This document shows positions 1,778 through 15,091 of a stretch of DNA of 36,742 nucleotides, piece by piece. A program made the position numbers and the translations under genes. The notes under the pieces were generated by a model, which saw nothing but the letters and a program-made list of their open reading frames with translations, was not told the origin of the DNA and made no database searches. This DNA is from a virus. Numbering within the stretch: the stretch's first letter is position 1; each line of letters starts with the position of its first letter. The DNA lies in the IMG/VR virus record IMGVR_UViG_3300001487_000076, positions 1 to 36,742 of that record. The stretch is one strand, 5' to 3'.

Positions 1778-1823
1778 AACATTTCCTCCTCAATCACTTT
1801 ACGATTTGTTCTTCGGTAATTGT

Positions 1824-1852: not shown

Positions 1853-1907
1853 TAGGTTACATTGTACAAATAATGTAGTATTTATTTGTTACTTTTTTCC
1901 AATAGCT

Positions 1908-2597: not shown

Positions 2598-2683
2598 AAT
2601 AATTTCCTCCTTATTTTTCATATAACGATAAGTTCCAAGAATTTCCAAGCTCATAATAAAGTCCATACTTTGCAAAGAGCTTT

Positions 2684-3214: not shown

Positions 3215-3228
3215 AATATTTTTCCTCC

Positions 3229-3393
3229 TTACTTGACTATATCAATATCATTTGTTGTGATAATGAATATTAAGTTTTCCACTTCTGATAATCTACTTTC
3301 AGTATCAGCTTTTCGTTTTTGTCCAATATACTTATTTTCCAGTTCCTTTGTGTAGATTTCTCTACGCTTTTTTAATATTTCCAATACCGTCAT
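3229..3393 (-). CDS. hypothetical small protein (54 aa)
   Basis: Below the track cutoff. AAGGAGGATTGAGCT precedes the ATG at 3393. The product is MTVLEILKKRREIYTKELENKYIGQKRKADTESRLSEVENLIFIITTNDIDIVK, and it fills an otherwise empty gap. Confidence 0.55.
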   Translation of the reverse strand: MTVLEILKKRREIYTKELENKYIGQKRKADTESRLSEVENLIFIITTNDIDIVK

Positions 3394-3396
3394 AGC

Positions 3397-3582
3397 TCAA
3401 TCCTCCTTGACAACCTTTATTACTCTTACTTTCCATTCCGTTCCGCAAATGTTTATGAAGTGACTTCTAAATTTTCCATAAGCCTTACAGAGTTTTGATA
3501 CATCCCTCCAAACTTTCCGAGTATCTTTAACATCAGAATATTCCTTAATAGCTCCATTGCTAAAATATACTGTTATTCTCAT
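3397..3582 (-). CDS. hypothetical small protein (61 aa)
   Basis: Track ORF. A GGGAGGTA ribosome-binding site is present, and the start overlaps the upstream stop as ATGA. Confidence 0.6.
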   Translation of the reverse strand: MRITVYFSNGAIKEYSDVKDTRKVWRDVSKLCKAYGKFRSHFINICGTEWKVRVIKVVKED

Positions 3583-3995
3583 ATTGCTGATACCTCCCTT
3601 ATTCCATTGTACGAAAGTCCCTCGCCATCAGTTCCAGCGTATACTACTTCACATTTTTCCGTGAGATATTTAGTCTGAATTTCTATCATTTTATCAAATT
3701 CTTTCTTATTTCCACCGACTTCAATATAGTCCGCTAAGTAATGGTCATAATGACTGCCCTCTCCACAATATTCCCAAGCTTTATGCTGGTCATAGAATGT
3801 AGATATTCCACCATACGCAAAGCAACTTTCAAGCATATTTAATGCACTCATTTCCTCATAAAGTTGTTTAGCAGAATCAGACCATTTTTTCCAATTGCCT
3901 ACATTTCCGTACTGACTGCATATTTCCTCGATAAGATTATCCCTCTGTCTTGATGTACAGCCATTAGGGAATATTTTACTTAATTTGTTTACCAT
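3579..3995 (-). CDS. hypothetical protein (138 aa)
   Basis: Track ORF 3579..4376, trimmed to the ATG at 3995 (MVNKLSKIF...), which is preceded by AAAGGAGGAAATTACT. The longer form would overlap gene 4069..4617. Confidence 0.6.
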   Translation of the reverse strand: MVNKLSKIFPNGCTSRQRDNLIEEICSQYGNVGNWKKWSDSAKQLYEEMSALNMLESCFAYGGISTFYDQHKAWEYCGEGSHYDHYLADYIEVGGNKKEFDKMIEIQTKYLTEKCEVVYAGTDGEGLSYNGIREVSAI

Positions 3996-4068
3996 AGTAA
4001 TTTCCTCCTTTAAAAATTTCCTTATCGTATATGGTAATGGGACTTGCAAGTGCCCATTATACTTTTTC

Positions 4069-4617
4069 CTATCGTGTTTTACAGCCGTAAACTTTCCTTG
4101 CAAAGTGTGGTATGTGGGTATAGCGTGAACTTTCCACAAGTTTTGTGTGAATTTCCTGTTCTGACCGTGAATCACTCCAATTCTCATTCCAACGTGAATA
4201 GTAGTTTCTGCCTTTTCCCGTAAGAATCTTGACTTCAAAGTGATTATTTCCGTCATGGTGACTTGCATTGATGTGCATATGACCGTCCTCGTCATAGATT
4301 TCCACATAGTCGCAGTCAGACCAGCACTTATGAAGTTCGTTATATGATATAACTTTTCCAGCAGAGTATGTGCCATTCCATCTGCCTACAGTTCCGATGA
4401 CAAGAATTTCCTTACCCTCAAAGAAGTTTTCCAGTTCGCTTGTAACACTTTCCCAGTCCATCTGTTCATTGAATGACATTTCATCCCACACTTCACTGTC
4501 TGGAATATCGTCAATAGTTTCCCAGCCGTTGTCCTCGCCTCTATCTTCCAGCAAGAACTCTCTTGTTGCTTTTTCCCTGTCACTGTCATAATAGTTTGAG
4601 AATATAATATTTTTCAT
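4069..4617 (-). CDS. hypothetical protein (182 aa), acidic N-terminal half
   Basis: Track ORF with a GGAGGAAAAGTAA ribosome-binding site. The N-terminus is rich in D and E. Confidence 0.65.
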   Translation of the reverse strand: MKNIIFSNYYDSDREKATREFLLEDRGEDNGWETIDDIPDSEVWDEMSFNEQMDWESVTSELENFFEGKEILVIGTVGRWNGTYSAGKVISYNELHKCWSDCDYVEIYDEDGHMHINASHHDGNNHFEVKILTGKGRNYYSRWNENWSDSRSEQEIHTKLVESSRYTHIPHFARKVYGCKTR

Positions 4618-4989
4618 TTACTTTTCCTCCTCGCAAAGTTCCTTATGTGCATCATAGCTTGATATACGTTTGAGTTCCACTGTAATATATTCTCCGTCAG
4701 AAGATATTTCCAGTCTGTACAAACGGATATATTCATAGTATCTATTTTCCGAAAGTCGTGACTTGACAAAAGTTTTTCCATCAACACCATTATCACGATA
4801 ACCGAGATAGAACACTTTATTTTCCGCACCCGTGATAGCACACTCTATCCGCTTTAAGTCTATGAATACATCGCTTGCATAGTATTCACATACAATTGCA
4901 GCGTGAATAAGTTCCGAAAAGATAGAGCTATAGTTCAGACAGCCTATCTGAGCTTTTTCCGTGATTGGTTTAGAGTTTATGTGTAACAT
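4618..4989 (-). CDS. hypothetical protein (123 aa)
   Basis: Track ORF with a GGAGGAAAATAAT ribosome-binding site. Confidence 0.65.
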   Translation of the reverse strand: MLHINSKPITEKAQIGCLNYSSIFSELIHAAIVCEYYASDVFIDLKRIECAITGAENKVFYLGYRDNGVDGKTFVKSRLSENRYYEYIRLYRLEISSDGEYITVELKRISSYDAHKELCEEEK

Positions 4990-4990
4990 A

Positions 4991-5200
4991 TTATTTTCCT
5001 CCTGTCATATCATATCGTATATTTTCCATTTCTTTTTTGATTTCATTAAGATATATTCTTATTTTATCATTTTCGGAGGAATTACTCATACGCTGTATAA
5101 TATCAGCCTGTACGGATACACGCATAGCCAAATCACAAAAACGCATATATCTATTCCAGTGAATTTTGTTCCATTTCATTTTCTTCTGACGTTTATTCAT
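4991..5200 (-). CDS. hypothetical small protein (69 aa)
   Basis: Track ORF with a GGGAGGAAAATAACT ribosome-binding site. Confidence 0.6.
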   Translation of the reverse strand: MNKRQKKMKWNKIHWNRYMRFCDLAMRVSVQADIIQRMSNSSENDKIRIYLNEIKKEMENIRYDMTGGK

Positions 5201-5202
5201 AG

Positions 5203-5454
5203 TTATTTTCCTCCCTTAAACCAAGGATTATCCGCACAATTACAGGTTGACATAGCAATTGCATATATACGGTCAGTCCACCTTCTGTTTGTTATAATTT
5301 TTCCATTATTATTACGGTAATGTGAATATATCCACGATACGCATTTTTTAAGGTCATAGTCCTCATAAACAATAGCCTGTTTTCCAAAACGCTTGCTATC
5401 AGCTTTGACCACAAAGGAATTTCCAGTGTTGAATATATGAAAATTTCTATACAT
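5203..5454 (-). CDS. hypothetical protein (83 aa)
   Basis: Track ORF 5203..5601, trimmed to the ATG at 5454 (MYRNFHIF...), which is preceded by GAGGAAAAAGCT. The longer form would overlap 5465..5698. Confidence 0.55.
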   Translation of the reverse strand: MYRNFHIFNTGNSFVVKADSKRFGKQAIVYEDYDLKKCVSWIYSHYRNNNGKIITNRRWTDRIYAIAMSTCNCADNPWFKGGK

Positions 5455-5464
5455 AGCTTTTTCC

Positions 5465-5698
5465 TCACATTCTGATACATTCATCGAGATAGACGGTATA
5501 TCCGTGGTATCTAAAATACGCACGTTCTCCGTAATGAACTTTAGCCTTATGGTATGTGGGTTTTCCGTTCCAAGCTCCAGCGACAAAGTACACATAATCA
5601 TCTATGCCGTACTCTATGTGCTTAATTTCCAGTCCGTTGCAGCCACTCCAATAAGCTATGGACTTATTATTTGTGCAAATTTCCTTTTTAGTTGGCAT
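5465..5698 (-). CDS. hypothetical protein (77 aa)
   Basis: Track ORF with an AAGGAGGGATAAACT ribosome-binding site. Confidence 0.6.
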   Translation of the reverse strand: MPTKKEICTNNKSIAYWSGCNGLEIKHIEYGIDDYVYFVAGAWNGKPTYHKAKVHYGERAYFRYHGYTVYLDECIRM

Positions 5699-5701
5699 AG
5701 T

Positions 5702-5833
5702 TTATCCCTCCTTGATGATTGAACAAATACAGCCATTGACGATACATAAGTCACCAATGACATAGTTTTTCCGTGTATGAATTTTGGCAGTCCAGCCATA
5801 GTCAACGCATTTGACAGTATAGATTTTTTCCAT
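5702..5833 (-). CDS. hypothetical Cys-rich small protein (43 aa)
   Basis: Below the track cutoff. GGGAGGACTGAACT precedes the ATG at 5833. The product is MEKIYTVKCVDYGWTAKIHTRKNYVIGDLCIVNGCICSIIKEG. Confidence 0.5.
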   Translation of the reverse strand: MEKIYTVKCVDYGWTAKIHTRKNYVIGDLCIVNGCICSIIKEG

Positions 5834-5847
5834 AGTTCAGTCCTCCC

Positions 5848-6042
5848 TCAGAATGTAAAGTCAGTGTATACCTCAGTTTTTCCGCTGAGATAACGTGTAT
5901 AGCTTATATCATCAAAACGACCGCACTCATATTTCTTTTCAGTGCGGTCATATTCTCCACGGATAAAGACTTGCTTTTCCGTTGGATTTTCTATAGGTTT
6001 AAGGGTAAAGTATTCCCCTATTTTTAGGTCTTTGATTAACAT
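5848..6042 (-). CDS. hypothetical small protein (64 aa)
   Basis: Track ORF 5848..6060, trimmed to the ATG at 6042 (MLIKDLKIGEYF...), which is preceded by GGGAGGAAAAACGTCC. Confidence 0.6.
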   Translation of the reverse strand: MLIKDLKIGEYFTLKPIENPTEKQVFIRGEYDRTEKKYECGRFDDISYTRYLSGKTEVYTDFTF

Positions 6043-6248
6043 GGACGTTTTTCCTCCCATATTCTCAGTTCATTTTCCACATATTCATAGTGGTCGAGTG
6101 CAGCCCAATCCAAGAAGATAGGTGCAAATTCAGCTTTTCCAAGCCATTTTAAGTTATTGTTATGGTCATAGTATGCTACTATCTGATTAGGCTTGATAGT
6201 ACCATTTTCCAAACCTTTATCGAGAAAATTTCCGATTGTTATTTTCAT
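6036..6248 (-). CDS. hypothetical small protein (70 aa)
   Basis: Track ORF with a CAGGAGGGCTGAACT ribosome-binding site. Confidence 0.6.
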   Translation of the reverse strand: MKITIGNFLDKGLENGTIKPNQIVAYYDHNNNLKWLGKAEFAPIFLDWAALDHYEYVENELRIWEEKRPC

Positions 6249-6251
6249 AGT

Positions 6252-6611
6252 TCAGCCCTCCTGTGAAATTTTAGTCATACGTTTTACAGCATTTCCAATA
6301 CGACAATACCATGGTGTTATCTGCTGCCAAAATCCGCACTTTTCCACTTTCACAAATACGGCATAGTTATCACCAAGAAATCTGTCATTGTACCATACGT
6401 CAGAATTTCCATTCTGAGAGCCTATCTTGTACTGTTTTCCAGTAGGTGTTGTAACTCCGCTAACTATTCCCAAAGGGATATTTTTAGAGTTGTAGAGTTT
6501 TCCAGTTTCAACATCAAGTCTAATTCCAGCAGCTCTAAGGCGTTCTTTTTCCTCAGAAATTTCCTCAGTTGTAAGACGTTTAAAGCCTCTTAAATATCCA
6601 GTTTTAGTCAT
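6252..6611 (-). CDS. hypothetical protein (119 aa)
   Basis: Track ORF with a GGGAGGCTAATACT ribosome-binding site. Confidence 0.65.
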   Translation of the reverse strand: MTKTGYLRGFKRLTTEEISEEKERLRAAGIRLDVETGKLYNSKNIPLGIVSGVTTPTGKQYKIGSQNGNSDVWYNDRFLGDNYAVFVKVEKCGFWQQITPWYCRIGNAVKRMTKISQEG

Positions 6612-6615
6612 AGTA

Positions 6616-6903
6616 TTAGCCTCCCAAAAAGATATTAAGCACCTGTCTACTTTGGATATGACAGAGTAGCTTTAAGGCTTGCAGAAAATTCCACAAGCCT
6701 CCATCAGCGTTATGCTTTTTTGAAAATGTAGGCGGTCTTGAATAGTATTGCACATTATTTGCAAAATTCCAACTTAAACAGCTTACATTTTCCTTGACGT
6801 TGTAATGGTATGGTGGTAAAAAGAGTGCAAAGAAAGGTAAATTTTCCCTTAGATTGAACCACGTTTCACCTATCCAATACCGCAAAGAGTATTTGTGTGT
6901 CAT
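6616..6903 (-). CDS. hypothetical protein (95 aa)
   Basis: Track ORF 6616..6918, trimmed to the ATG at 6903, which overlaps the upstream stop as ATGA. Confidence 0.5.
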   Translation of the reverse strand: MTHKYSLRYWIGETWFNLRENLPFFALFLPPYHYNVKENVSCLSWNFANNVQYYSRPPTFSKKHNADGGLWNFLQALKLLCHIQSRQVLNIFLGG

Positions 6904-7160
6904 AAAGTTTCCCACCACCTTTTACCGCCTCCGTTGATACCGAAAGTGTCACAAAATGAATTTATATGTCTCATAGTTGTGGCAGAATATCCATCCCACA
7001 ACTTTTCCAGTTTACCGTCAGAAGTAAGACGGAGAACGGGAGTTGTATAGCTGATTAGAGTTTTATCCCCATTTTCAGCCATAACAACACGGGCTTTACC
7101 GTAAAAACTTTTATGAGAATCTGTTGGACGCAGTTCAACAATATTGCCATTTACTAACAT
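6900..7160 (-). CDS. hypothetical protein (86 aa)
   Basis: Track ORF. Its leader TAATTTTAGGAGGCTAATATT-ATG is nearly identical to the leader of gene 7288..7596. Confidence 0.65.
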   Translation of the reverse strand: MLVNGNIVELRPTDSHKSFYGKARVVMAENGDKTLISYTTPVLRLTSDGKLEKLWDGYSATTMRHINSFCDTFGINGGGKRWWETL

Positions 7161-7287
7161 AATATTAGCCTCCTAAAATTAGATTTATACAGTTAGTCAC
7201 GGGCTTGTAACCGTCTGACTGGCTGCATTAAGGGCGTATAATACACCCCTACTCTGCATTATTAGCTATATGATTTGTACTTTGTGA

Positions 7288-7596
7288 TTATACAAAATTA
7301 AAGTCTGAATTGACCTTTTCAAGAGCGACTGATTCTTGATTAAATGCCTGTTTTAAGACTATAGCAAGCCTCTTGATTTTTTCGAGTTCACTTCCAGTTA
7401 TTTCAATACGGAGTGTAGGCTCATTAACGATAGTACCATCATCATGAGTATAGATACCCATAGCCTCAGTTATAGTGCCATAGCCTACAATATCAGTAAC
7501 CAGATTTGAGGCTATTTTGAACGCATTGAGAGTGCTTATCTCTTGTGCTTTGCTGTCTTTATCGAACAGTCCTAAAAAAAGTATAAATTTTGTCAT
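7288..7596 (-). CDS. hypothetical protein (102 aa), first gene of the leftward arm
   Basis: Track ORF with the leader TAATTTTAGGAGGTCATTATT-ATG. Confidence 0.7.
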   Translation of the reverse strand: MTKFILFLGLFDKDSKAQEISTLNAFKIASNLVTDIVGYGTITEAMGIYTHDDGTIVNEPTLRIEITGSELEKIKRLAIVLKQAFNQESVALEKVNSDFNFV

Positions 7597-7693
7597 AATA
7601 ATGACCTCCTAAAATTAGAATTATGGTTGCACTTTTCAGCGGATTTACGCTAAATTGTACATATAGCGGTATCAGAATCAGCTCTAATACCGC

Positions 7694-7722
7694 TTGACAA
7701 AATGCTATAATTTGAGTATAAT
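7694..7722 (+). promoter_or_regulatory. consensus sigma-A promoter (rightward) firing into noncoding DNA
   Basis: TTGACA (7694-7699), a 17-nt spacer aaatgctataatttgag, then TATAAT (7717-7722). There is no RBS-preceded plus-strand ORF downstream before the terminator at about 8260-8288; the longest is 25 codons. Confidence 0.65.
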
Positions 7723-7974
7723 TATAGCATAGAATTATTGTAATTAGTAGTCCGTACAAATTTTTTACCGCAATACGGCTCACGCCTTAACGCCTCTTTA
7801 CAGAGTCGGGACTACCTAAAAATTTTTCAAAAAGTCCCTTTATTCAGCTATTTTTCGGTATTAGCTATTTTATTTCACCGTCTATGTTTTAAGGTAATAC
7901 CGCACAAAATTAGTGTTATTGTACAGTAAGAACATAGTACCTATTGACAACATCAACTTTGTCACGCTGTACAG

Positions 7975-8003
7975 ATTATACAGAAGAGATATTGCACTGT
8001 TAC
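7975..8003 (-). promoter_or_regulatory. possible internal leftward promoter
   Basis: The minus strand reads GTAACA (8003-7998), a 17-nt spacer, then TATAAT (7980-7975). The -35 matches 4 of 6 positions. Confidence 0.3.
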
Positions 8004-8236
8004 GGCACTGTTTATTTTGCGTGGACTGCTCCACGGTATAAGCGTTGAAACTTTTTCAAGTCGCTTATAGCGGAAAATTGTTTATTTTCGGCTGCTATAC
8101 TTTGGCAATAGCTGCCTGCCATGTTATTAGGCACGTTGGCACACGCCCCGTACACTTGCATTATAACTAACGGTGTACGTCCCTATGATATACCGTAATA
8201 CCACAAAATTTGCGGCGTTAACTGAATTCTTTTAGC

Positions 8237-8288
8237 GTCCCGTATCAAGTCGGGACGTTGGAGCTTTTTGTTGCTCCGTGTTTTGTTT
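8237..8288 (+). terminator. tandem hairpins plus T-run (intrinsic terminator, plus strand)
   Basis: cgtcccg-tatcaagt-cgggacg, then ggagc-tttttgtt-gctcc, followed by gtgttttgttt. Confidence 0.5.
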
Positions 8289-8296
8289 ACAATGCT

Positions 8297-8325
8297 ATTA
8301 TACTACATGATTTTTACTTTGTCAA
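8297..8325 (-). promoter_or_regulatory. consensus sigma-A promoter (leftward), about 700 nt upstream of the first leftward gene
   Basis: The minus strand reads TTGACA (8325-8320), a 17-nt spacer aagtaaaaatcatgtag, then TATAAT (8302-8297). The spacer is homologous to those of the 1824 and 9652 promoters. Confidence 0.7.
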
Positions 8326-8640
8326 CGATTTTTGAAAAGTTTTTTAGTTTTGGATGGTTGCACAAAAAACTTTAGTGTGTTAAATTGAATAATTGTGCAA
8401 TAAGCAATAAGATTTTAGTGTATTAAAGTGTTTGTGTGAATACAGTTTGTAATATTATATTTGTTTTATACTGTTCGTCATAGTATGAGTAGTATACTAT
8501 TATAATATAAAAGAGACGTGTTGTGCATATTATACAATGAGAAGTAAATATTTTTGTGCAGTTTTTAATGAGTTTTCAACAATTGGCTGTCTGAGCTGAG
8601 AAAAACGGCTATTTTTTGACTTTTTTTGAAGTGCCATAAA

Positions 8641-8813
8641 TGGCTATATATAGGGAAAAAATAAACATTTTTTGAGCGTTTTTTTCAAGTCTGATTTTGA
8701 GCAGTTTTTTATGTTTTATTATTTAATTAATAGTGAATATTTTTGCATTTTTATGAATATTTGTTATGTGTATATTGATTTTTGGCTATTTATAGGGATT
8801 TATTGAGCGTTTT
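8641..8813. repeat. direct repeat modules TGGCTATWTATAGGGA ... TTGAGCGTTTT
   Basis: TGGCTATATATAGGGA (8641-8656) is followed by TTGAGCGTTTTT (8672-8683) and TTGAGCAGTTTT (8697-8708). TGGCTATTTATAGGGA (8783-8798) is followed by TTGAGCGTTTT (8803-8813). Confidence 0.7.
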
Positions 8814-8817
8814 GTAT

Positions 8818-8860
8818 ATGAATATTCATGTTTATTATTGTTATGTGTTGCAATTGCAAC
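8818..8860. repeat. two perfect palindromes
   Basis: ATGAATATTCAT (8818-8829) and GTTGCAATTGCAAC (8847-8860). Confidence 0.8.
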
Positions 8861-8864
8861 AAAA

Positions 8865-9085
8865 TAATTAAAGGGAGTTAATCTTTTAAGTATAAATTTA
8901 ATTAAAGCATTAGATAAATTAATCTTAATCGTTTAATTATATAATAACTTAATTAAGCTGCATTTAAGCTCTTAAATTAAGTGCTTAAATAATCAATGTT
9001 TAATTAATTTTTCACTTAAATGATTACCATCAAATAGAACAGTCGTTCTTTTTATTAAATATCTTAATTACTTAAAATGAACAAA
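8865..9085. repeat. extremely AT-rich tract with reiterated TTAATTAA / CTTAAAT-type motifs (candidate DNA-unwinding element)
   Basis: Many copies of taattaa, cttaatt, cttaaat and tttaatta lie within about 220 bp, with no ORF. Confidence 0.6.
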
Positions 9086-9200
9086 ACGGAAATTAAACGG
9101 CGGTAAATAGGCAAATACGGCACTTTGTAAAAATTATATACGGGGTATGTTTACATTTTAAATCAAATTTCGCTGCCGGAATACTGGGTAAGGTGTTCTA

Positions 9201-9290
9201 CTCCATTCACACCAGCTCACACCAATTCACACCAATTTACCCCAACTCATACCACACCACATCACTCCATTATCCCTACATCTCCCTATA
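9201..9290 (+). repeat. nine phased 10-bp units (ACCAAYTCAC-like, then TNTCCCTAYA x2), iteron-like
   Basis: Successive 10-mers read ctccattcac, accagctcac, accaattcac, accaatttac, cccaactcat, accacaccac, atcactccat, tatccctaca, tctccctata. The top strand has one G between 9201 and 9318. Confidence 0.8.
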
Positions 9291-9488
9291 TTAATTATCA
9301 TTCACTTCCCAATATATAGCCATAAACTAATTATTAAAATATCGCATAAATAATCATATCAGATTTTCAAATCCTTAATAAATCCCAATAATACGCTAAA
9401 AAATAGAAAAGCAATATACACTCTAATAACAGATATATAAGATAATTAAATTAGGAAAAGGGGTTTGGGGAAAGGGCAAAGGTCAACT

Positions 9489-9609
9489 GAGCGTAGCGAA
9501 GTTTACCGTCCCTGTCCCCAATATAGTAAATATTAAATATTAAATAGTAAATATTAAATTATAATTCTATAACTCTATAATATATCCCCCTATCTCACTC
9601 GCTACGCTC
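9489..9609. repeat. 11-bp perfect inverted repeat flanking an AT-rich tandem repeat
   Basis: GAGCGTAGCGA (9489-9499) pairs with TCGCTACGCTC (9599-9609). The interior contains agtaaatattaaat twice. Confidence 0.75.
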
Positions 9610-9614
9610 GTTCG

Positions 9615-9648
9615 TCCCCCAGAGGGGGATTTTATTTTTTTATTTTTT
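9615..9648 (+). terminator. intrinsic terminator
   Basis: tccccc-aga-ggggga is followed by ttttatttttttatttttt, immediately upstream of the 9652 promoter. Confidence 0.65.
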
Positions 9649-9651
9649 CTC

Positions 9652-9680
9652 TTGACAAAGTATAAATATTATGATATAAT
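9652..9680 (+). promoter_or_regulatory. consensus sigma-A promoter (rightward) for the Rep-like operon
   Basis: TTGACA (9652-9657), a 17-nt spacer aagtataaatattatga, then TATAAT (9675-9680). Confidence 0.75.
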
Positions 9681-9868
9681 AGGATTAGTACACAGGTGAG
9701 CTATTTTTATATTTGTTCATTGTATAAATCATATAGATTGAATAAATCATATAGTTCAAGTGTCTGTACCCTTGGCAAGCGTATGGGGTTTACTAAATCT
9801 AAAAGAACGGATTTTTCAAAAAACGCCAGTTTAGCCCGATTTTTCGGGAAAAACTGCAAATTGGGTGA

Positions 9869-9919
9869 GGTCGCAAAATGGCGAAAAACACCCCCAAAAA
9901 GGTCGCAAAATGGCGAAAA
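9869..9919 (+). repeat. 19-bp direct repeat GGTCGCAAAATGGCGAAAA x2, each containing an ATG
   Basis: The copies lie at 9869-9887 and 9901-9919, offset by 32 nt. The ATGs at 9878 and 9910 are therefore in different frames. Confidence 0.85.
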
Positions 9920-10863
9920 CCAAAATTGAAAGGAATGATGCAATGGAACGTGTCAAAGCGATTATTAATGACAAAGGCGAAGTTAAAAAACCTCCAGAGA
10001 ATAGCGTTGTTACTTGTTTTTCGGAAGAAGAATACAACAGCCGCAAGAACTATGGACGAAAACATTATGCCATTAAGCAACAGGACGAGAGTGATTATGA
10101 CAGTAGTATAAGTGAAGGAGGGAGTTATGTGTGGCATTACTTTATACCATCCGAGCGTTCGTTTGATAATCTGAACAACCCAACTATAAGCAGATTGGTT
10201 TATTTGGCAACCTACGTCAATAAGGACAATTACATAGCTTATGACAATGGACAACTTCTATCAAGGGGACAATTGCAATCGTTATTAAAACTTGGAGACA
10301 CTTCTTTTAAGTCATTCCTTAGAGAAGCCAAGAGATACAATTACCTTATAGAAGATGAACAAGGATTTCAAATTAACTCTAATATATTTGGCAAAGGTAA
10401 ATTACAGAAAGCCAAAGACCAAAGAGCAGCCAAGTTGTTTATATACTCAACTCGTTTCTTGTATGAACACGCCACGATTGATTCTCATAAAACGTTAGCT
10501 TATATGTATATGATACTCCCTTATGTTAATTTGACCTATAATGTGCTTTGCGAAAACCCTTGGGAAACTGATAAAGCAAAAATTACAAAGATGTCGGTTG
10601 ATACGCTATGTGCTAAACTTGGATTGAATATCTCTCACTCGAAGCGATTTGTCAATCAGTTATTAAAGATTCAGTACCCAGATAAGAACGGAGATAACCG
10701 AGGGGTGTTGGTCGCAGTCAGAGCAGCCAAGAACGATGTTATCAAAGAATACCTGTGTGTTAATCCTGCACTGTATAGTATATATGCTAATAAGGAAAAG
10801 ATAGCACAGGCAACCGGAATCGAAGATATATTTCTTATTAAGGAGGTGAACGATAATGACTAA
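9910..10863 (+). CDS. putative replication initiator / DNA-binding protein with two winged-helix-like segments (317 aa)
   Basis: Track ORF 9865..10863 has a GTG start, and I prefer the ATG at 9910 (MAKTKIERND...). Segments such as LSRGQLQSLLKLGDTSFKSFLREAKRYNYLIEDEQGFQIN and MSVDTLCAKLGLNISHSKRFVNQLLKI look like wHTH. The gene lies directly downstream of iteron-like repeats. The function is an inference. Confidence 0.4.
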   Translation: MAKTKIERNDAMERVKAIINDKGEVKKPPENSVVTCFSEEEYNSRKNYGRKHYAIKQQDESDYDSSISEGGSYVWHYFIPSERSFDNLNNPTISRLVYLATYVNKDNYIAYDNGQLLSRGQLQSLLKLGDTSFKSFLREAKRYNYLIEDEQGFQINSNIFGKGKLQKAKDQRAAKLFIYSTRFLYEHATIDSHKTLAYMYMILPYVNLTYNVLCENPWETDKAKITKMSVDTLCAKLGLNISHSKRFVNQLLKIQYPDKNGDNRGVLVAVRAAKNDVIKEYLCVNPALYSIYANKEKIAQATGIEDIFLIKEVNDND

Positions 10864-10987
10864 GGATTACATAAACTACATCCAGACTACAGATTATACA
10901 GATTCTACTGTCATAGACAATCAAGAAAGCTCAGACGAGTTCTATGGTCATCCGGACTACAAGCAGTATGTAGATGATTGGTGCTAA
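10856..10987 (+). CDS. hypothetical small acidic protein (43 aa)
   Basis: Below the track cutoff. AAGGAGGTGAACGATA precedes the ATG at 10856. The product is MTKDYINYIQTTDYTDSTVIDNQESSDEFYGHPDYKQYVDDWC. Confidence 0.5.
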   Translation: MTKDYINYIQTTDYTDSTVIDNQESSDEFYGHPDYKQYVDDWC

Positions 10988-11027
10988 TCTATCAATGTAT
11001 AAATCATATAGCTGAGGAGAGATAGAA

Positions 11028-11198
11028 ATGACAAATCTAAGCAGATGGGCTTCTACTTTCGACAATAAAACTCGATGTTTATATCAGCTCGAAAGCAGCA
11101 ACGATACAACGGGGGTTGTATATGACCAAGACAAGAATAGGCAATGGCGTACCTTGCTACAATTGGACTACACCTGTATATCACGTTTGGATAGATGA
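11028..11198 (+). CDS. hypothetical small protein (56 aa)
   Basis: Below the track cutoff. GAGGAGAGATAGAA precedes the ATG. The product is MTNLSRWASTFDNKTRCLYQLESSNDTTGVVYDQDKNRQWRTLLQLDYTCISRLDR. Confidence 0.5.
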   Translation: MTNLSRWASTFDNKTRCLYQLESSNDTTGVVYDQDKNRQWRTLLQLDYTCISRLDR

Positions 11199-11264
11199 CA
11201 AATGGGAATTGACGACACAGTGTATGCACGATGCCTATGCTTTCTATGAAAGGAGATTACATAA

Positions 11265-11411
11265 ATGACACGAGAACAGATATGTAGCCAGCAGATACAT
11301 TGTTTGAGCTGTCCCTTATCGGTTGTACGAACCGATAAGGACTGTAGGACATTAACTCTTGAAGAAATAAAAAAGGAAGTGAAGAAAAATGACAATACAC
11401 AAAATGCTTGA
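11265..11411 (+). CDS. hypothetical Cys-containing small protein (48 aa)
   Basis: AAAGGAGATTACATAA precedes the ATG. The product is MTREQICSQQIHCLSCPLSVVRTDKDCRTLTLEEIKKEVKKNDNTQNA. Confidence 0.5.
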   Translation: MTREQICSQQIHCLSCPLSVVRTDKDCRTLTLEEIKKEVKKNDNTQNA

Positions 11412-11568
11412 AATACTTGCAATGGGTACTCCTAATGGTTCTGCCTTAAAAGAACTTGCAGAATATTATGGTTGTGAGGATTATGACTTATCACCTATCA
11501 GCGATACTATGGCAGACAGATGGATTGAAAGAAAAGAAGTATTTAAGGATAGAGGAACAATGGTATAA
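11389..11568 (+). CDS. hypothetical small protein (59 aa)
   Basis: AAGGAAGTGAAGAAAA precedes the ATG, and the product starts MTIHKMLEILAMGTPNGSALKELAEYYGCEDYDLSPISDTMADRWIERKEVFKDRGTMV. It overlaps the previous ORF by 23 nt. Confidence 0.45.
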   Translation: MTIHKMLEILAMGTPNGSALKELAEYYGCEDYDLSPISDTMADRWIERKEVFKDRGTMV

Positions 11569-11625
11569 TGTGCATTTCACATTAACATTCACTATGATTT
11601 TGTGATATAGGAGGAATTAAATAAA

Positions 11626-12207
11626 TTGAATAGCAAACGTAAACACATATGTGGCGTATATTCAATCACAAATAATATTAACGAGAAGTGTTATATCGGA
11701 CAAAGTATAGATGTCTATTCTCGTTGGCTTAGTCATAAAAACCCTAAACAATGGCAGGCTGAAAAAAGTAAAGCATTATATCGAGCGTTTCGTAAATATG
11801 GTGTTGAAAACTTTACCTTTAGAATAATTGAGGAATGTCCAAGAGAACAACTTGATAGTCGTGAAAAATTCTGGATTTCTTATTACGATTCTTATAAGAA
11901 TGGATATAATATGAACGAAGGTGGACAGGGACAAAATCGAAATTATCATCGTAGGTGGTTACATAGACGTAAAAACGAATTTGCTCGAAGGCTTGATATG
12001 TTTATAGGTGATTCCGAAAAGGAGTTCCCAGACATACAAAGTGTATTTGCAGAAATGAGAATGGCTGTTTGCCCAGATGTTTATAACTTGGATGATATTG
12101 AGGATGATTGTATTCGTGAAGAAATTGACGGGTATGATACGATGATGCGTGTGCTTTGTGATGGTTATGATAGTTACGAACAATGGGCTGAATGTACTTT
12201 TATATAA
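11626..12207 (+). CDS. GIY-YIG homing endonuclease (free-standing, 193 aa)
   Basis: It has a TTG start 9 nt after AGGAGG. ICGVYSITNNINEKCYIGQSIDVYSRWLSHK carries the GIY...YIG...R..H motif. REKFWISYYDSYKNGYNMNEGG supplies the conserved Glu and Asn. Confidence 0.8.
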   Translation: MNSKRKHICGVYSITNNINEKCYIGQSIDVYSRWLSHKNPKQWQAEKSKALYRAFRKYGVENFTFRIIEECPREQLDSREKFWISYYDSYKNGYNMNEGGQGQNRNYHRRWLHRRKNEFARRLDMFIGDSEKEFPDIQSVFAEMRMAVCPDVYNLDDIEDDCIREEIDGYDTMMRVLCDGYDSYEQWAECTFI

Positions 12208-12226
12208 AAAAACAGAGGTGACAAAA

Positions 12227-15091
12227 ATGGACAAGAATAAATATAATAGCGTATATATACTTAGTGTCGAAGCAAAAGACCTTTATGCTGCAAAAAAATA
12301 TGTCAATCCAATACTCGATGAACAAACAAATAATATTATTGGATATGTTAATATGAACCTTAAACATTGGAAGAATACACTTGATTTTAGCCTTGACCTT
12401 GTTAAACTCCGTGAAGTAGCATATAAACATTATCGTAATAGAAAATCTTTTTTCTTTGATAAAGATTTGAATAAGGAATTTACTCAACGTGTAATAAACG
12501 TAGACTTTAATTTAGCGTACAAAGAATGGAATCGTCATGGTGACATTTATATTCGTAACGGCTATGGAATGGCTGACATAAAAAGTGTGGGTAAATTTGG
12601 AGATAGAACGTTTTACAAGGATGGTATTTGCATTGGTATTAAAGTAGGAAATATAACAGACGAAGATAATAATGTTGTATGGGAAAACATTCCAAAATAC
12701 TTTAAGTATGAAAAAGAAAACAAAGTAATTAAAGTTGATAAAACGATTCCTACGCTTATGAGCAGAAGCGAACTTAGGCACGACCTTTATGAAAACGGCT
12801 TTATATGTAATGGCATAAAGTATGTTAGATATAAGCGTTCTTCTGGAAGTAGTAGGGTGGGTAAATGTTTGTTTATTGACGAGGAACTTTATCCTGTTAT
12901 GCATGAATGGGAACTATGCGGTCTTAATATCAGAGAGGGAGATAAGATAGACCTTGCTGCATTTGAAGCGTACATTTCATTACCATCAAGTAGTTGCATT
13001 GATACTCTTGAAATAAAACCAGAGAACATTCTTGTTATAGACGATTTTGAGTCTGTGTTTGAAGATGATGTTGTAGCAGTCTATGGCGAAGGAGAAAACT
13101 TTGTGGCTAAAGAAGAACGTGCTACAATTAGGAACAGTATTTGGGATGGACAGAGCCTACTTGACATCAGTATGTATAGCGAGTATTATACAGACAAAAC
13201 TATGTTGCTTCTTAGAAACAGATTCTTTAAAAGTGCTTGCTTTAAGACTAAGATACAGGATTGGTTTAGAGACAATAATATTACTGACGTATCTCAGCTT
13301 AAAGGTTATACCAGAGCAACCTGCATAGAGGATATTAAACTTATTACTACTCCGTCCAGTATTAAGTATGTAAAGTTTGGCACAATTGAGCAATGGCTTG
13401 ACAATCTCTATCCGACTTTCGGGATAGTGAAGTACGAAAAGCCAACTAAGTATCTTGACGGTAGAATGGTTCAGTGTCACTATCAACTCTTAAATTCATT
13501 GCAGTTGACCAGAGAGGATATACAAGAATTGATACAACCCAATTTCGACTATCTTAATCTAATTCGTAAAGACCCAGCCGTCATGAGGTATCATTTGAAA
13601 TACCCATATTCATTAGCTGACAATGATGAACCTTGTTATACGAGAGATGAAGTTGTTATGAAAGTAATGGGAATGAATAGTAAGTTCGTAGACACGAAAC
13701 TTTATAATGAGTTTCGCAGAAAACTTACCGAATCTATTCTCAAAGAATATCGTAAGGGTCATATCTGGGTTAGTGGCAATTACGAGACTCTTATAGGCAA
13801 TGGAGTGGAAATGCTTCAATCAGCAATCGGAATATTTAACGGGGAAAGCGTTCTTGGTGTAGGTAATGTACATACTAAGAGATTTGATTATGGTACAACA
13901 ATTCTCGGAACTCGTTCACCACATATTAATTCAGGAGATGTTTTGCTTGCCAATAACGTAGAGAGTGATATAATAGACAGATACTTTGTGTCGAGCAGCG
14001 AGGTTGTTCATATTAATAGTATTGGCGAAAATATACTTCAACGCTTACAAGGAGCAGATTTTGATAGTGACTCTATTCTTCTTACCGACAATCAAATACT
14101 TATTAATGCCGCTCGAAAAAACTATCATACATTCAAAGTGCCTACGAGTTTCATAGAAGCTAAAAAGATTCAATGGACATATGATAGTAATTCAAAAGCC
14201 AAGCTGGACATTAACACAAGTGTAAACCTAATAGGTCAAATCGTTAATCTTTCACAGTATCTCAATTCGGTTATGTGGGAACGTATATACAATGATGTGA
14301 GTGATGGCGTAAGCAATGAAATTGCTATAAAAAATCAATCTGCGTTATATAATGACATTTGTATTTTGTCGAGTGCTTCGGGTGCGGAGATAGATAAAGC
14401 TAAAAAAACGTTTGATGTAAATACTTCAAAAATGCTCAATATGCTTAAAGAACGGTATGGTGTTTATACAAAAGTCAATGGCAAGGACAAGTTTACAAAA
14501 CCACTATTTTTCAAGAATATTACAATTAACAATGGATATTCTCTTAATCCCAATCATTACTTTAGAGCGTTTGAGACATCTATGGATTATTTACAAAAAG
14601 CGATTAATGGATTTAGAGCAGACAAAATTAAAGTCAAGAATTTACCGTTTTGTGAAATAATCAAGCCCATTGATATTGATTGGAATAAAGTTGGCACAAC
14701 TCAATATATAAAAGTAAATCAGGTAATAGATAGTATTAAAGAGTGTCGAAATCAAATTAGGCAATTGTACTCTGATTATAGTACCAAATCAAAAGATGAA
14801 AAAATAATAATTACAAATGAGGTCAACTTGGTTCGTAATAAATGCGTAGATATAATTTCAAGTAAAAGATATATTGACGTTGAATTATATTTGCTTCTTA
14901 AAGAAATAGATAAAAACAAAAATGCTGGATATTCAAGAACTATATTTGACATTTTGTTCTCTACAGGAAACGCAGACCTCTATAACATGATAAGAGATAC
15001 GTCCGATGGCATTTACAAAATTACAAAGAAAACAAATGATAATTGTGTAGTGCTTTTTGAGAATTTATATTTCAAACAAAAAATAGGCTAA
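12227..15091 (+). CDS. YonO / QDE-1-like single-subunit two-barrel RNA polymerase (954 aa)
   Basis: Track ORF 12149..15091, trimmed to the ATG at 12227, which follows AGAGGTGACAAAA. TRSPHINSGDVLLANNVE, about 27 aa, then LQGADFDSDSILLTDN (nt 13913-14092) mirrors the catalytic DPBB layout RSPxxxPxD...GGDxDGD of cellular-type RdRPs/YonO and NADFDGD of beta-prime. KYVRYKRSSGSSRVGKCLFIDEELY resembles the second conserved RdRP block. Confidence 0.65.
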   Translation: MDKNKYNSVYILSVEAKDLYAAKKYVNPILDEQTNNIIGYVNMNLKHWKNTLDFSLDLVKLREVAYKHYRNRKSFFFDKDLNKEFTQRVINVDFNLAYKEWNRHGDIYIRNGYGMADIKSVGKFGDRTFYKDGICIGIKVGNITDEDNNVVWENIPKYFKYEKENKVIKVDKTIPTLMSRSELRHDLYENGFICNGIKYVRYKRSSGSSRVGKCLFIDEELYPVMHEWELCGLNIREGDKIDLAAFEAYISLPSSSCIDTLEIKPENILVIDDFESVFEDDVVAVYGEGENFVAKEERATIRNSIWDGQSLLDISMYSEYYTDKTMLLLRNRFFKSACFKTKIQDWFRDNNITDVSQLKGYTRATCIEDIKLITTPSSIKYVKFGTIEQWLDNLYPTFGIVKYEKPTKYLDGRMVQCHYQLLNSLQLTREDIQELIQPNFDYLNLIRKDPAVMRYHLKYPYSLADNDEPCYTRDEVVMKVMGMNSKFVDTKLYNEFRRKLTESILKEYRKGHIWVSGNYETLIGNGVEMLQSAIGIFNGESVLGVGNVHTKRFDYGTTILGTRSPHINSGDVLLANNVESDIIDRYFVSSSEVVHINSIGENILQRLQGADFDSDSILLTDNQILINAARKNYHTFKVPTSFIEAKKIQWTYDSNSKAKLDINTSVNLIGQIVNLSQYLNSVMWERIYNDVSDGVSNEIAIKNQSALYNDICILSSASGAEIDKAKKTFDVNTSKMLNMLKERYGVYTKVNGKDKFTKPLFFKNITINNGYSLNPNHYFRAFETSMDYLQKAINGFRADKIKVKNLPFCEIIKPIDIDWNKVGTTQYIKVNQVIDSIKECRNQIRQLYSDYSTKSKDEKIIITNEVNLVRNKCVDIISSKRYIDVELYLLLKEIDKNKNAGYSRTIFDILFSTGNADLYNMIRDTSDGIYKITKKTNDNCVVLFENLYFKQKIG

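What the first reader, a model, noticed from the sequence alone, without database searches (positions are those of the whole stretch)
7694..8325. Face-to-face consensus promoters about 570 bp apart, predicting fully overlapping antisense noncoding transcripts
A perfect rightward promoter (7694-7722) fires into DNA with no RBS-preceded ORF. It meets two hairpins plus a T-run at 8237-8288. A perfect leftward promoter (8325-8297) starts transcription almost exactly at that terminator. Its transcript must cross the same approximately 560 nt, antisense, before reaching the first leftward gene at 7596, giving a leader of about 700 nt. A third, weaker leftward promoter sits inside at 8003-7975. The interval is rich in local stems and short repeats, including gtaataccgcacaaaatt / gtaataccacaaaattt, gcactgtt x2 and gtcgggac x2. 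This geometry is what one expects for a transcriptional-interference or antisense-RNA switch that controls entry into the early leftward programme, or for a regulatory/decoy ncRNA. No repressor/Cro-type gene pair is visible in this interval.
Basis: partly seen in the sequence, partly recalled or inferred. Interest (0 to 1): 0.65.

Follow-up and report, generated by a model that had tools for sequence, protein, structure and literature searches.

The report
Facing promoters around a structured phage leader
Two perfect bacterial promoters face each other across about 570 bases of gene-free, strongly folded sequence at the head of an uncultured rumen phage's early genes; this looks like an antisense or collision control module of a known general kind, built around an RNA that matches no described family.

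Summary
The window holds four perfect TTGACA-N17-TATAAT sites where 0.02 are expected. Two of them (7694-7722 on +, 8325-8297 on -) face each other across an ORF-free interval that ends in a double hairpin plus U-run at 8234-8288.

The geometry is conserved. All 31 related SPbeta-like rumen phage loci keep a plus promoter (29 perfect, 2 at 11/12). Sixteen also keep a near-perfect facing promoter about 600-660 nt away. The sequence between the promoters is swapped among at least 7 unalignable cassette types, even next to an identical flanking gene.

Within the window's type, compensatory changes support a 234-nt closed multi-helix domain (7751-7984). Wobble patterns and folding energy favour the minus strand, the roughly 690-nt leader of the early leftward operon, whose first gene resembles a SAM lyase. 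Five rumen metatranscriptomes contain exactly this domain and none of the neighbouring genes; the RNA strand is unknown.

Most relatives carry a small RHH-like gene behind the leftward promoter and a palindrome in its spacer. The window has neither.

Best reading (about 0.45): a convergent-promoter, cis-antisense control module on a structured early leader, comparable to pCF10 prgQ/prgX or P22 Pant/sar. Rfam has no match. The transcripts and their effects are inferred, not shown.

The parts
7694..7722 (+). P(+): perfect sigma-70/sigmaA-type promoter (TTGACA-17-TATAAT). The predicted start is about 7729.
   Evidence: All 31 related loci have a plus promoter at the corresponding place (29 at 12/12, two at 11/12), whatever the cassette type.
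7702..7730 (.). Perfect 11-bp inverted repeat (ATGCTATAATT / AATTATAGCAT) spanning the spacer, -10 box and start of P(+). It could be an operator, or a hairpin of the leftward leader RNA (-9.8 kcal/mol, followed by UUUUG).
   Evidence: In type-C relatives the right arm lies 12-85 nt further away. That fits an RNA helix better than a fixed-spacing operator; this is an inference.
7729..8288 (+). Predicted rightward non-coding transcript, about 550-560 nt, antisense to about 80% of the leftward leader.
   Evidence: It is inferred from the promoter and the terminator. No ORF is present. No strand-specific RNA data are available.
8234..8288 (+). Double hairpin plus U-rich tail: an intrinsic terminator for the rightward transcript. 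On the minus strand the same hairpins form a 5'-terminal stem-loop pair at about +12 to +57 of the leader.
   Evidence: -24.8 kcal/mol, z = -5.3. L038 shows compensatory changes at 8261/8276 and 8263/8274.
8297..8325 (-). P(-): perfect leftward promoter with predicted start about 8290. It is the likely promoter of the early leftward operon.
   Evidence: A homologous promoter (TTGACA-17-TAT[ACT]AT) is present in 16 of 31 loci, and 10/12 versions in L038 and L045. No minus-strand terminator was called between it and 7596.
7597..8290 (-). ORF-free, highly structured leader of the leftward operon, about 694 nt.
   Evidence: Folding z = -5.6 for 7729-8290 and -6.6 for 7597-7745. There is no coding potential.
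7751..7984 (-). Closed multi-helix domain of 234 nt. The closing helix pairs 7984-7976 with 7759-7751. It contains the covarying helices 7936-7931/7888-7883 and 7928-7919/7907-7898. It coincides with the only RNA detected.
   Evidence: On the minus strand, 70 pairs are 99.5% paired and 6 pairs carry double changes (0 of 500 shuffles reach this). The minus consensus is -57.5 kcal/mol against -38.5 for plus. RNA contigs cover 7753-7994 in five runs.
7665..7694 (-). A 12-bp hairpin abutting the -35 box of P(+). It lies outside the plus transcript, so as RNA it can exist only in the leftward leader.
   Evidence: Energy is -18.2 kcal/mol on minus against -13.5 on plus. The differences between the window and L004/L028 are G.U on minus and A.C on plus.
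7975..8003 (-). Weaker internal leftward promoter-like site (GTAACA-17-TATAAT, 10/12).
   Evidence: The -10 box is invariant in the 6 variants, but it overlaps the closing helix of the domain, so its status is ambiguous.
7288..7596 (-). First gene of the leftward operon (102 aa), resembling a SAM lyase. Its Shine-Dalgarno sequence at 7605-7612 is predicted to lie in a small hairpin.
   Evidence: The AlphaFold model has pLDDT 94.5. The best PDB match is phage SAM lyase 6zm9, with TM 0.73 and E = 3e-7. There is a weak Pfam PF23780 hit.

Best explanation
The interval is the control region at the head of the phage's early leftward operon.

(1) Host RNA polymerase starts at the perfect leftward promoter (8325-8297, start about 8290). 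It must cross a leader of about 690 nt that has no ORF and is heavily folded, before reaching the first gene at 7596. That gene resembles a SAM lyase, so it is a probable anti-restriction function.

(2) A second perfect promoter (7694-7722) sits inside the far end of that leader and fires the opposite way. It would make an RNA of about 550 nt, complementary to about 80% of the leader. That RNA would stop at a double hairpin plus U-run a few bases short of the leftward promoter.

(3) Polymerases from the two promoters therefore meet head-on (transcriptional interference), and the two RNAs can pair (antisense-triggered cleavage or premature termination). The balance between the two promoters would set how much transcription and translation reaches the early genes.

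(4) In most relatives a small RHH-like gene lies just behind the leftward promoter, and that promoter's spacer holds a palindrome. The rightward promoter could read through into that gene, as PX does for prgX in pCF10. The window's lineage has lost both the gene and the palindrome, so only the RNA and collision part remains.

(5) A 234-nt closed domain of the leader (7751-7984) is the part that accumulates as RNA.

Shown: the promoters, the terminator, the absence of ORFs, conservation of the geometry, covariation, and the presence of RNA.
Inferred: both transcription starts, the overlap, the interference or antisense effect, the role of the RHH-like protein, and the strand of the RNA seen.
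For: Promoters and terminator.
- Both promoters are perfect; the window has 4 such sites against 0.02 expected.
- The terminator-like hairpins end the plus unit 9-20 nt before the -10 box of P(-). Compensatory changes support them.
- No ORF lies in the interval.

Conservation.
- All 31 related loci have a plus promoter 73-270 nt upstream of the 102-aa gene (408 nt in L002, where another small gene intervenes).
- Sixteen have a facing promoter of at least 11/12 about 610-660 nt further on (about 230 nt in type G, L046/L048). Two more have a 10/12 promoter at the homologous spot.
- In a type-B relative the plus unit also ends at an intrinsic terminator about 70 nt before P(-).

Structure.
- Structure is conserved in type A: 6 double-change pairs, 0 of 500 shuffles reach this.
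- Structure is conserved in type B: 15 shared pairs with compensatory changes.
- In type A the minus strand is favoured: consensus -57.5 against -38.5 kcal/mol, and every variant folds 9-18 kcal/mol better on minus. One-sided changes are G.U on minus and A.C on plus.
- The hairpins at 7665-7694 and 7702-7730 lie partly or wholly upstream of the plus start, yet behave as RNA helices. This implies leftward read-through across P(+).

RNA.
- Five metatranscriptome runs hold 7753-7994 (three identical, two about 90% variants).
- No run classified as RNA holds the neighbouring genes at 6252-7700.

Genomic context.
- RHH-bearing relatives have palindromes such as ACATCGTTGCAACGATGT in the P(-) spacer. 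The window does not.
- The RHH-like gene has no strong promoter of its own.
- The first leftward gene resembles a SAM lyase, which fits an early anti-defence operon.
Against: - There is no strand-specific RNA, no mapped 5' or 3' ends, and no functional test.
- The RNA contigs cover only 7753-7994. They do not cover the full predicted 550-nt or 690-nt transcripts, and their depth is low (2-7).
- Both promoters are equally perfect, so the outcome of the interference is not predictable from sequence.
- Cassette types C, D and F show no clear facing promoter, so the facing pair is not universal.
- In type B there is no strand preference. The leftward leader there carries its own intrinsic terminator. 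That could mean two independent convergent ncRNAs, or an attenuator, and not simple interference.
- That P(-) drives the operon rests only on the absence of a closer promoter or a called terminator.
- The RHH assignment rests on sequence pattern and a sub-threshold DUF6290 hit.
Confidence: 0.45

Rival explanations
1. The leader is mainly a cis-acting leader device. The folded minus-strand leader controls read-through or translation of the early operon by itself, through attenuation or antitermination, a 5' stabiliser, or sequestration of the Shine-Dalgarno sequence. The stable 234-nt domain is its processed core. P(+) would be a minor modulator or serve something else.
For: - Folding and wobble asymmetry favour the minus strand in type A.
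- The 3' part of the leader folds with z = -6.6 and pairs the Shine-Dalgarno sequence.
- A hairpin followed by UUUUG lies at 7730-7697.
- The type-B leader has an intrinsic terminator about 240 nt before the gene.
- RNA of the leader domain is found without RNA of the downstream genes.
Against: - P(+) is perfect or near-perfect in all 31 loci while its surroundings change. This argues for strong selection on the rightward promoter itself.
- No antitermination factor or known leader family was found in Rfam.
- The type-A minus-strand hairpin plus U-run is weak (-9.8 kcal/mol, 2 G-C pairs).
Confidence: 0.2
2. The product is a trans-acting stable phage ncRNA, from either strand. The roughly 234-nt domain would act on a host or rival-phage target, for example as a decoy or sponge for a defence or RNA-binding protein, or as an RNA-based immunity or exclusion determinant. 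Cassette swapping would then reflect diversifying selection.
For: - A discrete closed domain matches the only RNA detected in five runs.
- Turnover of the cassette is extreme next to a nearly identical gene: the 102-aa gene is 92-100% identical in nucleotides, while the cassettes are 86-88% identical or unalignable.
- It sits beside an anti-defence-type gene.
- Run X9 carries the cassette with a different left flank.
Against: - No target, partner protein or known family was found.
- Non-coding leaders between conserved promoters can also be swapped simply by recombination at the promoters.
- The covariance model of the core domain finds nothing in the other cassette types, so no single shared 'active' RNA is evident.
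Confidence: 0.15
3. The promoters are real but the sequence between them is largely unselected filler. It would be a recombination-prone spacer between early promoters, with local hairpins but no specific function.
For: The cassettes are mosaic and unalignable between types, with breakpoints exactly at the conserved promoters (7665, 7724, the P(-) region).
Against: - Compensatory changes occur in two independent cassette types.
- Folding z-scores range from -4 to -6.6.
- The length of about 600 nt is kept across types.
- RNA accumulates from the domain.
Confidence: 0.08
4. The rightward RNA acts as a replication primer or origin activator. It would prime or open the adjacent AT-rich region (8330-9100), as ColE1 RNA II or the T4/T7 origin transcripts do.
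For: - P(+) points toward a region of 20-25% G+C with strong skew, followed by CA-rich iterons (sequence).
- Beyond these lies a gene similar to a phiCD211 protein that sits near the start of that phage's genome record.
Against: - A covariation-supported terminator and an opposing perfect promoter lie between the RNA and the AT-rich region.
- The AT-rich region is conserved while the cassette is swapped.
- In relatives an RHH-like gene intervenes.
Confidence: 0.05
5. The region is a type I toxin-antitoxin pair, as in the SPbeta bsrG/SR4 or yonT/SR6 systems: convergent promoters, a small toxic peptide mRNA and an antisense RNA.
For: The promoters are convergent, and the phage is SPbeta-like (terminase 44% identical to SPbeta-group phages).
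Against: - No Shine-Dalgarno-preceded ORF of 12 or more codons exists on either strand.
- The only semi-hydrophobic ORF (8045-8170, TTG start, no Shine-Dalgarno sequence) is broken by two 1-nt indels in L038 and replaced in L036.
Confidence: 0.02

Closest known systems
pCF10 prgQ/prgX convergent-promoter switch of Enterococcus faecalis (from my own knowledge, not tested here)
   Same: - Two promoters face each other.
- The operon promoter is opposed by a promoter placed inside its own leader.
- The opposing transcript is antisense to the leader.
- In the relatives here, that transcript points through the operon promoter toward a small repressor gene lying behind it.
- A repressor operator lies at the operon promoter.
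- The proposed mechanism combines interference and antisense.
   Different: - The overlap is about 560 nt here against 223 nt there.
- The window itself has no repressor gene.
- There is no peptide-pheromone system.
- The element is a phage, not a conjugative plasmid.
- There is no sequence homology.
- Nothing has been shown experimentally here.
Phage P22 immI region: Pant, the convergent Psar promoter giving sar antisense RNA, and the RHH repressors Arc and Mnt (from my own knowledge)
   Same: - An antisense RNA arises from a promoter facing an early 'anti-' operon promoter.
- In relatives, small RHH-type repressors have operators inside the promoter.
   Different: - sar is about 69 nt and overlaps an intercistronic site. 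Here the overlap is a structured leader of about 560 nt.
- The RHH-like gene is absent from this window.
Coliphage 186 pR/pL face-to-face promoters; general transcriptional interference between convergent promoters (PMC5001618, found)
   Same: Strong convergent promoters whose polymerases must collide, arranged as a genetic switch at the head of phage operons.
   Different: - In 186 the promoters are 62 bp apart and overlap coding leaders.
- There is no long structured RNA and no cassette swapping in 186.
Plasmid sense/antisense control RNAs (ColE1 RNA I/RNA II, R1 CopA/CopT) (from my own knowledge)
   Same: - Complementary multi-hairpin RNAs.
- Compensatory evolution of stems.
- Sequence variants could define specificity groups.
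   Different: - Those systems control replication or translation of a rep gene.
- Their antisense RNAs are about 70-110 nt.
- No link to replication is shown here.
Large phage-associated structured RNAs ROOL and GOLLD (Rfam)
   Same: They are several hundred nucleotides long, ornate in fold, phage-borne, and ROOL was first found in rumen samples.
   Different: - No covariance-model match appears even at E up to 5.
- The genomic context differs: an early leader between facing promoters, not a location near tRNAs.

Membership tests
Convergent-promoter cis-antisense / transcriptional-interference module | Two functional promoters oriented toward each other on opposite strands | tested here: met
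   Both are 12/12 consensus, against 0.02 expected per window. They are conserved in relatives. Promoter activity itself was not measured.
Convergent-promoter cis-antisense / transcriptional-interference module | The transcripts from the two promoters overlap | not testable with these tools
   The geometry predicts an overlap of about 560 nt. RNA from 7753-7994 is present, but Logan contigs carry no strand information and no ends were mapped.
Convergent-promoter cis-antisense / transcriptional-interference module | One promoter feeds a downstream operon through the overlap region | tested here: inconclusive
   No closer leftward promoter and no called minus-strand terminator lie between 8290 and 7596. 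Helices at 7665-7730 behave as minus-strand RNA. A weak hairpin plus UUUUG lies at 7730-7697.
Convergent-promoter cis-antisense / transcriptional-interference module | Activity of one promoter lowers output of the other | not testable with these tools
   This needs reporter or in vitro transcription experiments.
prgQ/prgX-type or P22 immI-type switch (with a protein repressor) | A repressor gene and its operator at the regulated promoter | tested here: not met
   The window has no RHH-like ORF and no palindrome in the P(-) spacer. Relatives have both.
Intrinsic (Rho-independent) terminator | A G+C-containing hairpin followed directly by a U-run, with the stem conserved | tested here: met
   Hairpin 2 shows two compensatory pairs in L038. 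The U-run is not kept in L038, where an RHH-like gene follows.
Any Rfam family (including ROOL, GOLLD, riboswitches, T-box, ribozymes) | Covariance-model score at or near the family threshold | tested here: not met
   Nothing in 7597-8330 reaches gathering score. At E up to 5 there are only chance-level hits: RsaF 20 bits against 60, and a tmRNA fragment at 12 bits. The cassettes of relatives gave none either.
Type I toxin-antitoxin | A small conserved toxin ORF with a ribosome-binding site, overlapped by an antisense RNA | tested here: not met
   No Shine-Dalgarno-preceded ORF of 12 or more codons, and no ORF conserved among variants.
Conserved structured RNA (generic) | Base pairs maintained by compensatory substitutions beyond what controls give | tested here: met
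   Type A, minus strand: 70 pairs, 99.5% paired, 6 pairs with double changes (0 of 500 shuffles reach this), and slid controls give 0-2. There are only 6 sequences from about 4 lineages, two of them reconstructed from read tables, so the support is moderate. Type B: 15 shared compensatory pairs.

The most novel reading that the evidence does not exclude
The inter-promoter cassette is an exchangeable RNA specificity module. Each cassette would encode a matched pair of structured sense and antisense RNAs, including a stable domain of about 234 nt. That pair would gate the early anti-defence operon in cis. In trans, it would let a resident or co-infecting phage of the same cassette type shut down a rival's early genes. 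This would be RNA-based immunity or exclusion groups in a large family of SPbeta-like rumen phages, analogous to plasmid incompatibility groups. It would explain why at least 7 unalignable cassettes circulate next to an identical flanking gene.
Probability: 0.15. Interest if true: 0.75.

Novelty: new variant of a known kind. Interest (0 to 1): 0.5.

Why it matters
If the module works as proposed, it is a natural, compact genetic switch made only of two consensus promoters, a terminator and a folded RNA. It would control the first genes a large group of uncultured rumen phages express, including a likely anti-restriction enzyme.

The swapping of whole RNA cassettes between otherwise near-identical phages would point to selection on RNA sequence identity itself, which is a testable route to RNA-based phage-phage exclusion.

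The finding also adds an unclassified structured RNA with metatranscriptomic support to the short list of phage leader and antisense RNAs.

If it is only a spacer between early promoters, it is ordinary.

Tried and rejected
- Rfam. The window was searched at gathering score, 6900-10000 at E up to 5, and ten related loci were searched too. Nothing known lies in the interval.
- tRNA and tmRNA. None in the interval.
- GenBank phage collection. blastn of 7600-9860 gave no match.
- Pattern scans. A conserved 20-23-mer found only the near-identical IMG/VR contig in viral contigs, nothing in metagenome contigs, and a chance hit in a Saprospiraceae MAG. The promoter 29-mer found one JGI contig carrying another cassette type.
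- Coding hypotheses. There are no Shine-Dalgarno-preceded ORFs. The 41-aa ORF at 8045-8170 is not conserved in frame. The type I toxin-antitoxin reading was dropped.
- Covariance model. A model of the core sub-domain (R1) was searched over 24 loci. Only type-A members score. The best other hits are 15-19 bits with E above 0.5. The short motifs shared with types C, D and G (TATTTCACC, TTARTGTTATT) could not be raised to demonstrated homology.
- Strand test on the larger type-B set. It gave no preference.
- Transcriptomes for a type-B cassette.
- Literature searches. They returned only general convergent-promoter and arbitrium/aimX antisense papers, and nothing on this phage group.
- RHH-like proteins against Pfam. 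Only sub-threshold hits came back (DUF6290, 17 bits against a cutoff of 27).
Full report
WHAT IS IN THE SEQUENCE

TTGACA-17-TATAAT lies at 7694-7722 on the plus strand and at 8325-8297 on the minus strand. A search of the whole 36.7-kb window finds only four perfect sites: 1852-1824 (-), 7694 (+), 8325 (-) and 9652 (+). Shuffles give 0.02. All four share an extended TTGACAAA start, so they look like this phage's early promoters for the host polymerase.

Between the facing pair there is no Shine-Dalgarno-preceded ORF of 12 or more codons on either strand. The phage's real genes carry strong AGGAGG sites.

The plus unit runs into two adjacent hairpins (8234-8259 and 8260-8277) followed by GUGUUUUGUUU, at -24.8 kcal/mol and z = -5.3. 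This ends 9-20 nt before the -10 box of the minus promoter. The interval folds better than dinucleotide shuffles on both strands: z = -4.0 on plus and -5.6 on minus. Rfam and tRNA searches find nothing in it.

WHAT THE PHAGE IS

The window is identical to contigs from gut metagenomes. It is 97% identical to a 108.6-kb IMG/VR contig. Related sequences occur in sheep, cattle and goat gut metagenomes.

- The large terminase is 44% identical to that of SPbeta-group Bacillus phages.
- A 980-aa protein matches a protein annotated as an RNA-dependent RNA polymerase in Enterocloster phages. From my own knowledge, this may be a YonO-type phage RNA polymerase.
- The 332-aa protein at the head of the right arm resembles a protein of Clostridioides phage phiCD211.
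- The first leftward gene (7288-7596) gives a confident model (pLDDT 94.5). Its best PDB match is a phage SAM lyase (6zm9, TM 0.73, E = 3e-7). This fits an early anti-restriction operon.

THE GEOMETRY IS CONSERVED BUT THE SEQUENCE IS NOT

The 102-aa protein has over 200 homologues. I fetched the upstream DNA of about 40 of them.

All 31 loci examined have a plus promoter 73-270 nt upstream of the gene (408 nt in L002); 29 are perfect and two (L046, L048) are 11/12. Sixteen also have a facing promoter of 11-12/12, about 610-660 nt further on (about 230 nt in type G). L038 and L045 have a 10/12 version at the homologous place.

The DNA between the promoters falls into at least seven types that do not align with one another. 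The breakpoints lie at window 7665 or 7724, just after the -10 box of the plus promoter, and around the minus promoter.

Phages encoding the very same 102-aa protein carry type A (the window's), type B or type C. The adjacent gene is 92-100% identical in nucleotides. Same-type cassettes are only 86-88% identical.

Types C, D and F show no clear facing promoter, so the facing pair is common but not universal. In a type-B relative the plus unit also ends at an intrinsic terminator about 70 nt before the minus promoter. The leftward leader there has its own terminator about 240 nt before the gene.

THE MISSING REPRESSOR

Most relatives encode a protein of 65-76 aa (MSKFDSNKY... or MPFDKNLYHKEY...) on the plus strand just beyond the minus promoter.

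- Its pattern suggests a ribbon-helix-helix DNA binder. Pfam gives only a sub-threshold DUF6290 hit, so this is an inference.
- Where it is present, the spacer of the minus promoter holds a palindrome whose arms differ between phages but stay complementary. Examples are ACATCGTTGCAACGATGT, ACATATG..CATATGT and ACATCTG..CAGATGT.
- The window, L028 and L036 lack both the gene and the palindrome. L038 combines a type-A cassette with the gene.
- The gene has no strong promoter of its own. It may be read from the plus promoter through the minus promoter. That is the layout of prgX/prgQ in pCF10 (my own knowledge).

IS THE INTERVAL A STRUCTURED RNA, AND ON WHICH STRAND?

For type A I had four full variants (window, L028, L036, L038). 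I reconstructed three partial ones from read tables (X20 from RNA, X10 and X9 from DNA).

A consensus fold of 7745-8009 gives a closed multi-helix domain on the minus strand. Its closing helix pairs 7984-7976 with 7759-7751.

- With 70 pairs, 99.5% of cells are paired.
- Six pairs carry changes on both sides. No shuffle out of 500 reaches this, and slid controls give 0-2.
- Helix 7936-7931/7888-7883 changes G-C to A-U and U-A to C-G in the X20 variant. The intermediates in L038 and L036 are G.U on the minus strand and A.C on the plus strand.
- Helix 7928-7919/7907-7898 has three double changes and three wobble changes, all compatible with the minus strand only.
- The minus consensus is -57.5 kcal/mol against -38.5 for plus. 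Every variant folds 9-18 kcal/mol better on minus.
- The hairpin at 7665-7694 lies upstream of the plus start, so as RNA it can exist only in a leftward transcript. It shows the same asymmetry between the window and L028.
- The 3' part of the leader (7745-7597) folds with z = -6.6 and pairs the Shine-Dalgarno sequence.

The type-A evidence rests on about four independent lineages. In the larger type-B set (9 sequences) structure is again conserved, with 15 shared compensatory pairs. There is no strand preference there. I therefore treat 'minus strand' as favoured for this window, not proven.

RNA EVIDENCE

Five metatranscriptome runs contain contigs from the interval, and all of them lie within 7753-7994.

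- Three are identical to the window. Two of these runs come from the very samples whose DNA runs hold the window sequence at about 50-fold depth.
- Two are a variant about 90% identical, carrying a 20-nt hairpin duplication.
- No run classified as RNA holds the neighbouring leftward genes at 6252-7700.
- In the two matched samples nothing else from 1-11,900 is seen. Several middle and late genes at 12-19 kb are seen at similar low depth.
- The detected stretch coincides with the closed domain at 7751-7984.
- Logan contigs carry no strand information and their ends follow graph branching. So the strand and the true ends remain unknown.
- Random DNA carry-over is unlikely to hit the same 240 nt in five independent runs. 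This last point is my own reasoning and not a computed result.

HOW IT MOST LIKELY WORKS

I commit, at about 0.45, to the following model.

1. The minus promoter drives the early leftward operon through a structured leader of about 690 nt.
2. The plus promoter, embedded at the far end of that leader, makes an antisense RNA of about 550 nt that stops just before the minus promoter.
3. Head-on collisions plus sense-antisense pairing set how much expression reaches the SAM-lyase-like gene and the small genes behind it.
4. In relatives an RHH-like repressor adds protein control at the minus promoter. The window's lineage has lost that layer.

The rivals are listed here with their rough weights.
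- The leader acts mainly in cis by attenuation or translational masking (0.2).
- The stable domain is a trans-acting RNA, possibly an immunity or exclusion or decoy RNA, which would explain the cassette swapping (0.15).
- The region is unselected filler between promoters (0.08).
- The plus RNA is a primer or activator for the neighbouring AT-rich region (0.05).
- It is a type I toxin-antitoxin pair (0.02, since there is no ORF).

COMPARISON WITH KNOWN SYSTEMS

It works like convergent-promoter switches such as pCF10 prgQ/prgX, P22 Pant/Psar with Arc and Mnt, and coliphage 186 pR/pL. It also resembles plasmid sense/antisense RNA pairs. These comparisons rest on my own knowledge of those systems.

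It is not a member of any sequence family I could test. There is no Rfam match. The GenBank phage collection gives no match. My own covariance model finds only type-A cassettes.

The defining functional features of an interference switch, namely overlapping transcripts and reciprocal inhibition, cannot be tested with these tools. The repressor-plus-operator feature of the prgX or immI type is tested and not met in this window.

VERDICT

The feature is real and conserved. It is a new variant of a known kind of control module, built on an unclassified structured RNA with metatranscriptomic support. The mechanism is inferred. Interest is moderate (0.5). It would be higher if the cassette turns out to be an RNA specificity determinant.

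Noticed in passing
window 7199-7258 (-): A type-P5 twister ribozyme (45.8 bits against a gathering score of 37.6) sits between the first and second genes of the leftward operon. The same ribozyme follows the 102-aa gene in 8 related loci (40-55 bits). The early mRNA is therefore probably self-cleaved there.
   Followed up: partly
window 7288-7596 (-): The first leftward gene gives a confident model (pLDDT 94.5). Its best PDB match is a phage SAM lyase (6zm9, TM 0.73, 24% identity). It is a likely anti-restriction or anti-defence early protein.
   Followed up: yes
window 1824-1852 (-) and 9652-9680 (+): These are two more perfect promoters. They share TTGACAAAGTA-AAAT with the one at 8325. The site at 9652 heads the rightward operon, so it and the leftward promoter at 8325 diverge around 1.3 kb of non-coding DNA.
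   Followed up: partly
window 8330-9650: A stretch of 20-25% G+C with strong G-over-C skew (8300-8900) is followed by CA-rich TCACACCA-type repeats (9190-9290) and tandem AATATTAAATAGTAAATATT repeats (9527-9560). A replication origin is possible. The region is conserved among relatives even though the neighbouring cassette is swapped.
   Followed up: no
window 9449-9525: This 77-nt block (GGGGTTTGGGGAAAGGGCAAAGG...CCGTCCCTGTCCCC) is 97% identical in relatives whose flanks are only 72-79% identical. It is unexplained.
   Followed up: no
L026 1816-2034, L010 2620-2838, L038 1691-1921 and others (relatives only): A 65-76-aa RHH-like gene lies behind the leftward promoter in most relatives, and a covarying palindrome lies in that promoter's spacer. 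Both are absent from the window.
   Followed up: partly
window 8369-8386 and 8412-8430: Two copies of TTTAGTGTRTTAAA-like sequence lie upstream of the leftward promoter. Relatives have ACTTTATTnnnnTAAAGT palindromes at the same place. These are possible binding sites for another regulator.
   Followed up: no
window 11626-12207 (+) and 12149-15091 (+): A GIY-YIG homing-endonuclease-like ORF lies directly upstream of, and overlaps, a 980-aa protein. That protein resembles the 'RNA-dependent RNA polymerase' of Enterocloster phages and may be a YonO-type phage RNA polymerase.
   Followed up: partly
window 7871-7958 and 8090-8220: In other rumen samples single modules of the cassette are replaced by unrelated sequence of similar length: 84 nt for 86 in run X9, and 167 nt for 129 in run X6/L036. 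In X9 the cassette also sits beside a different left flank.
   Followed up: partly
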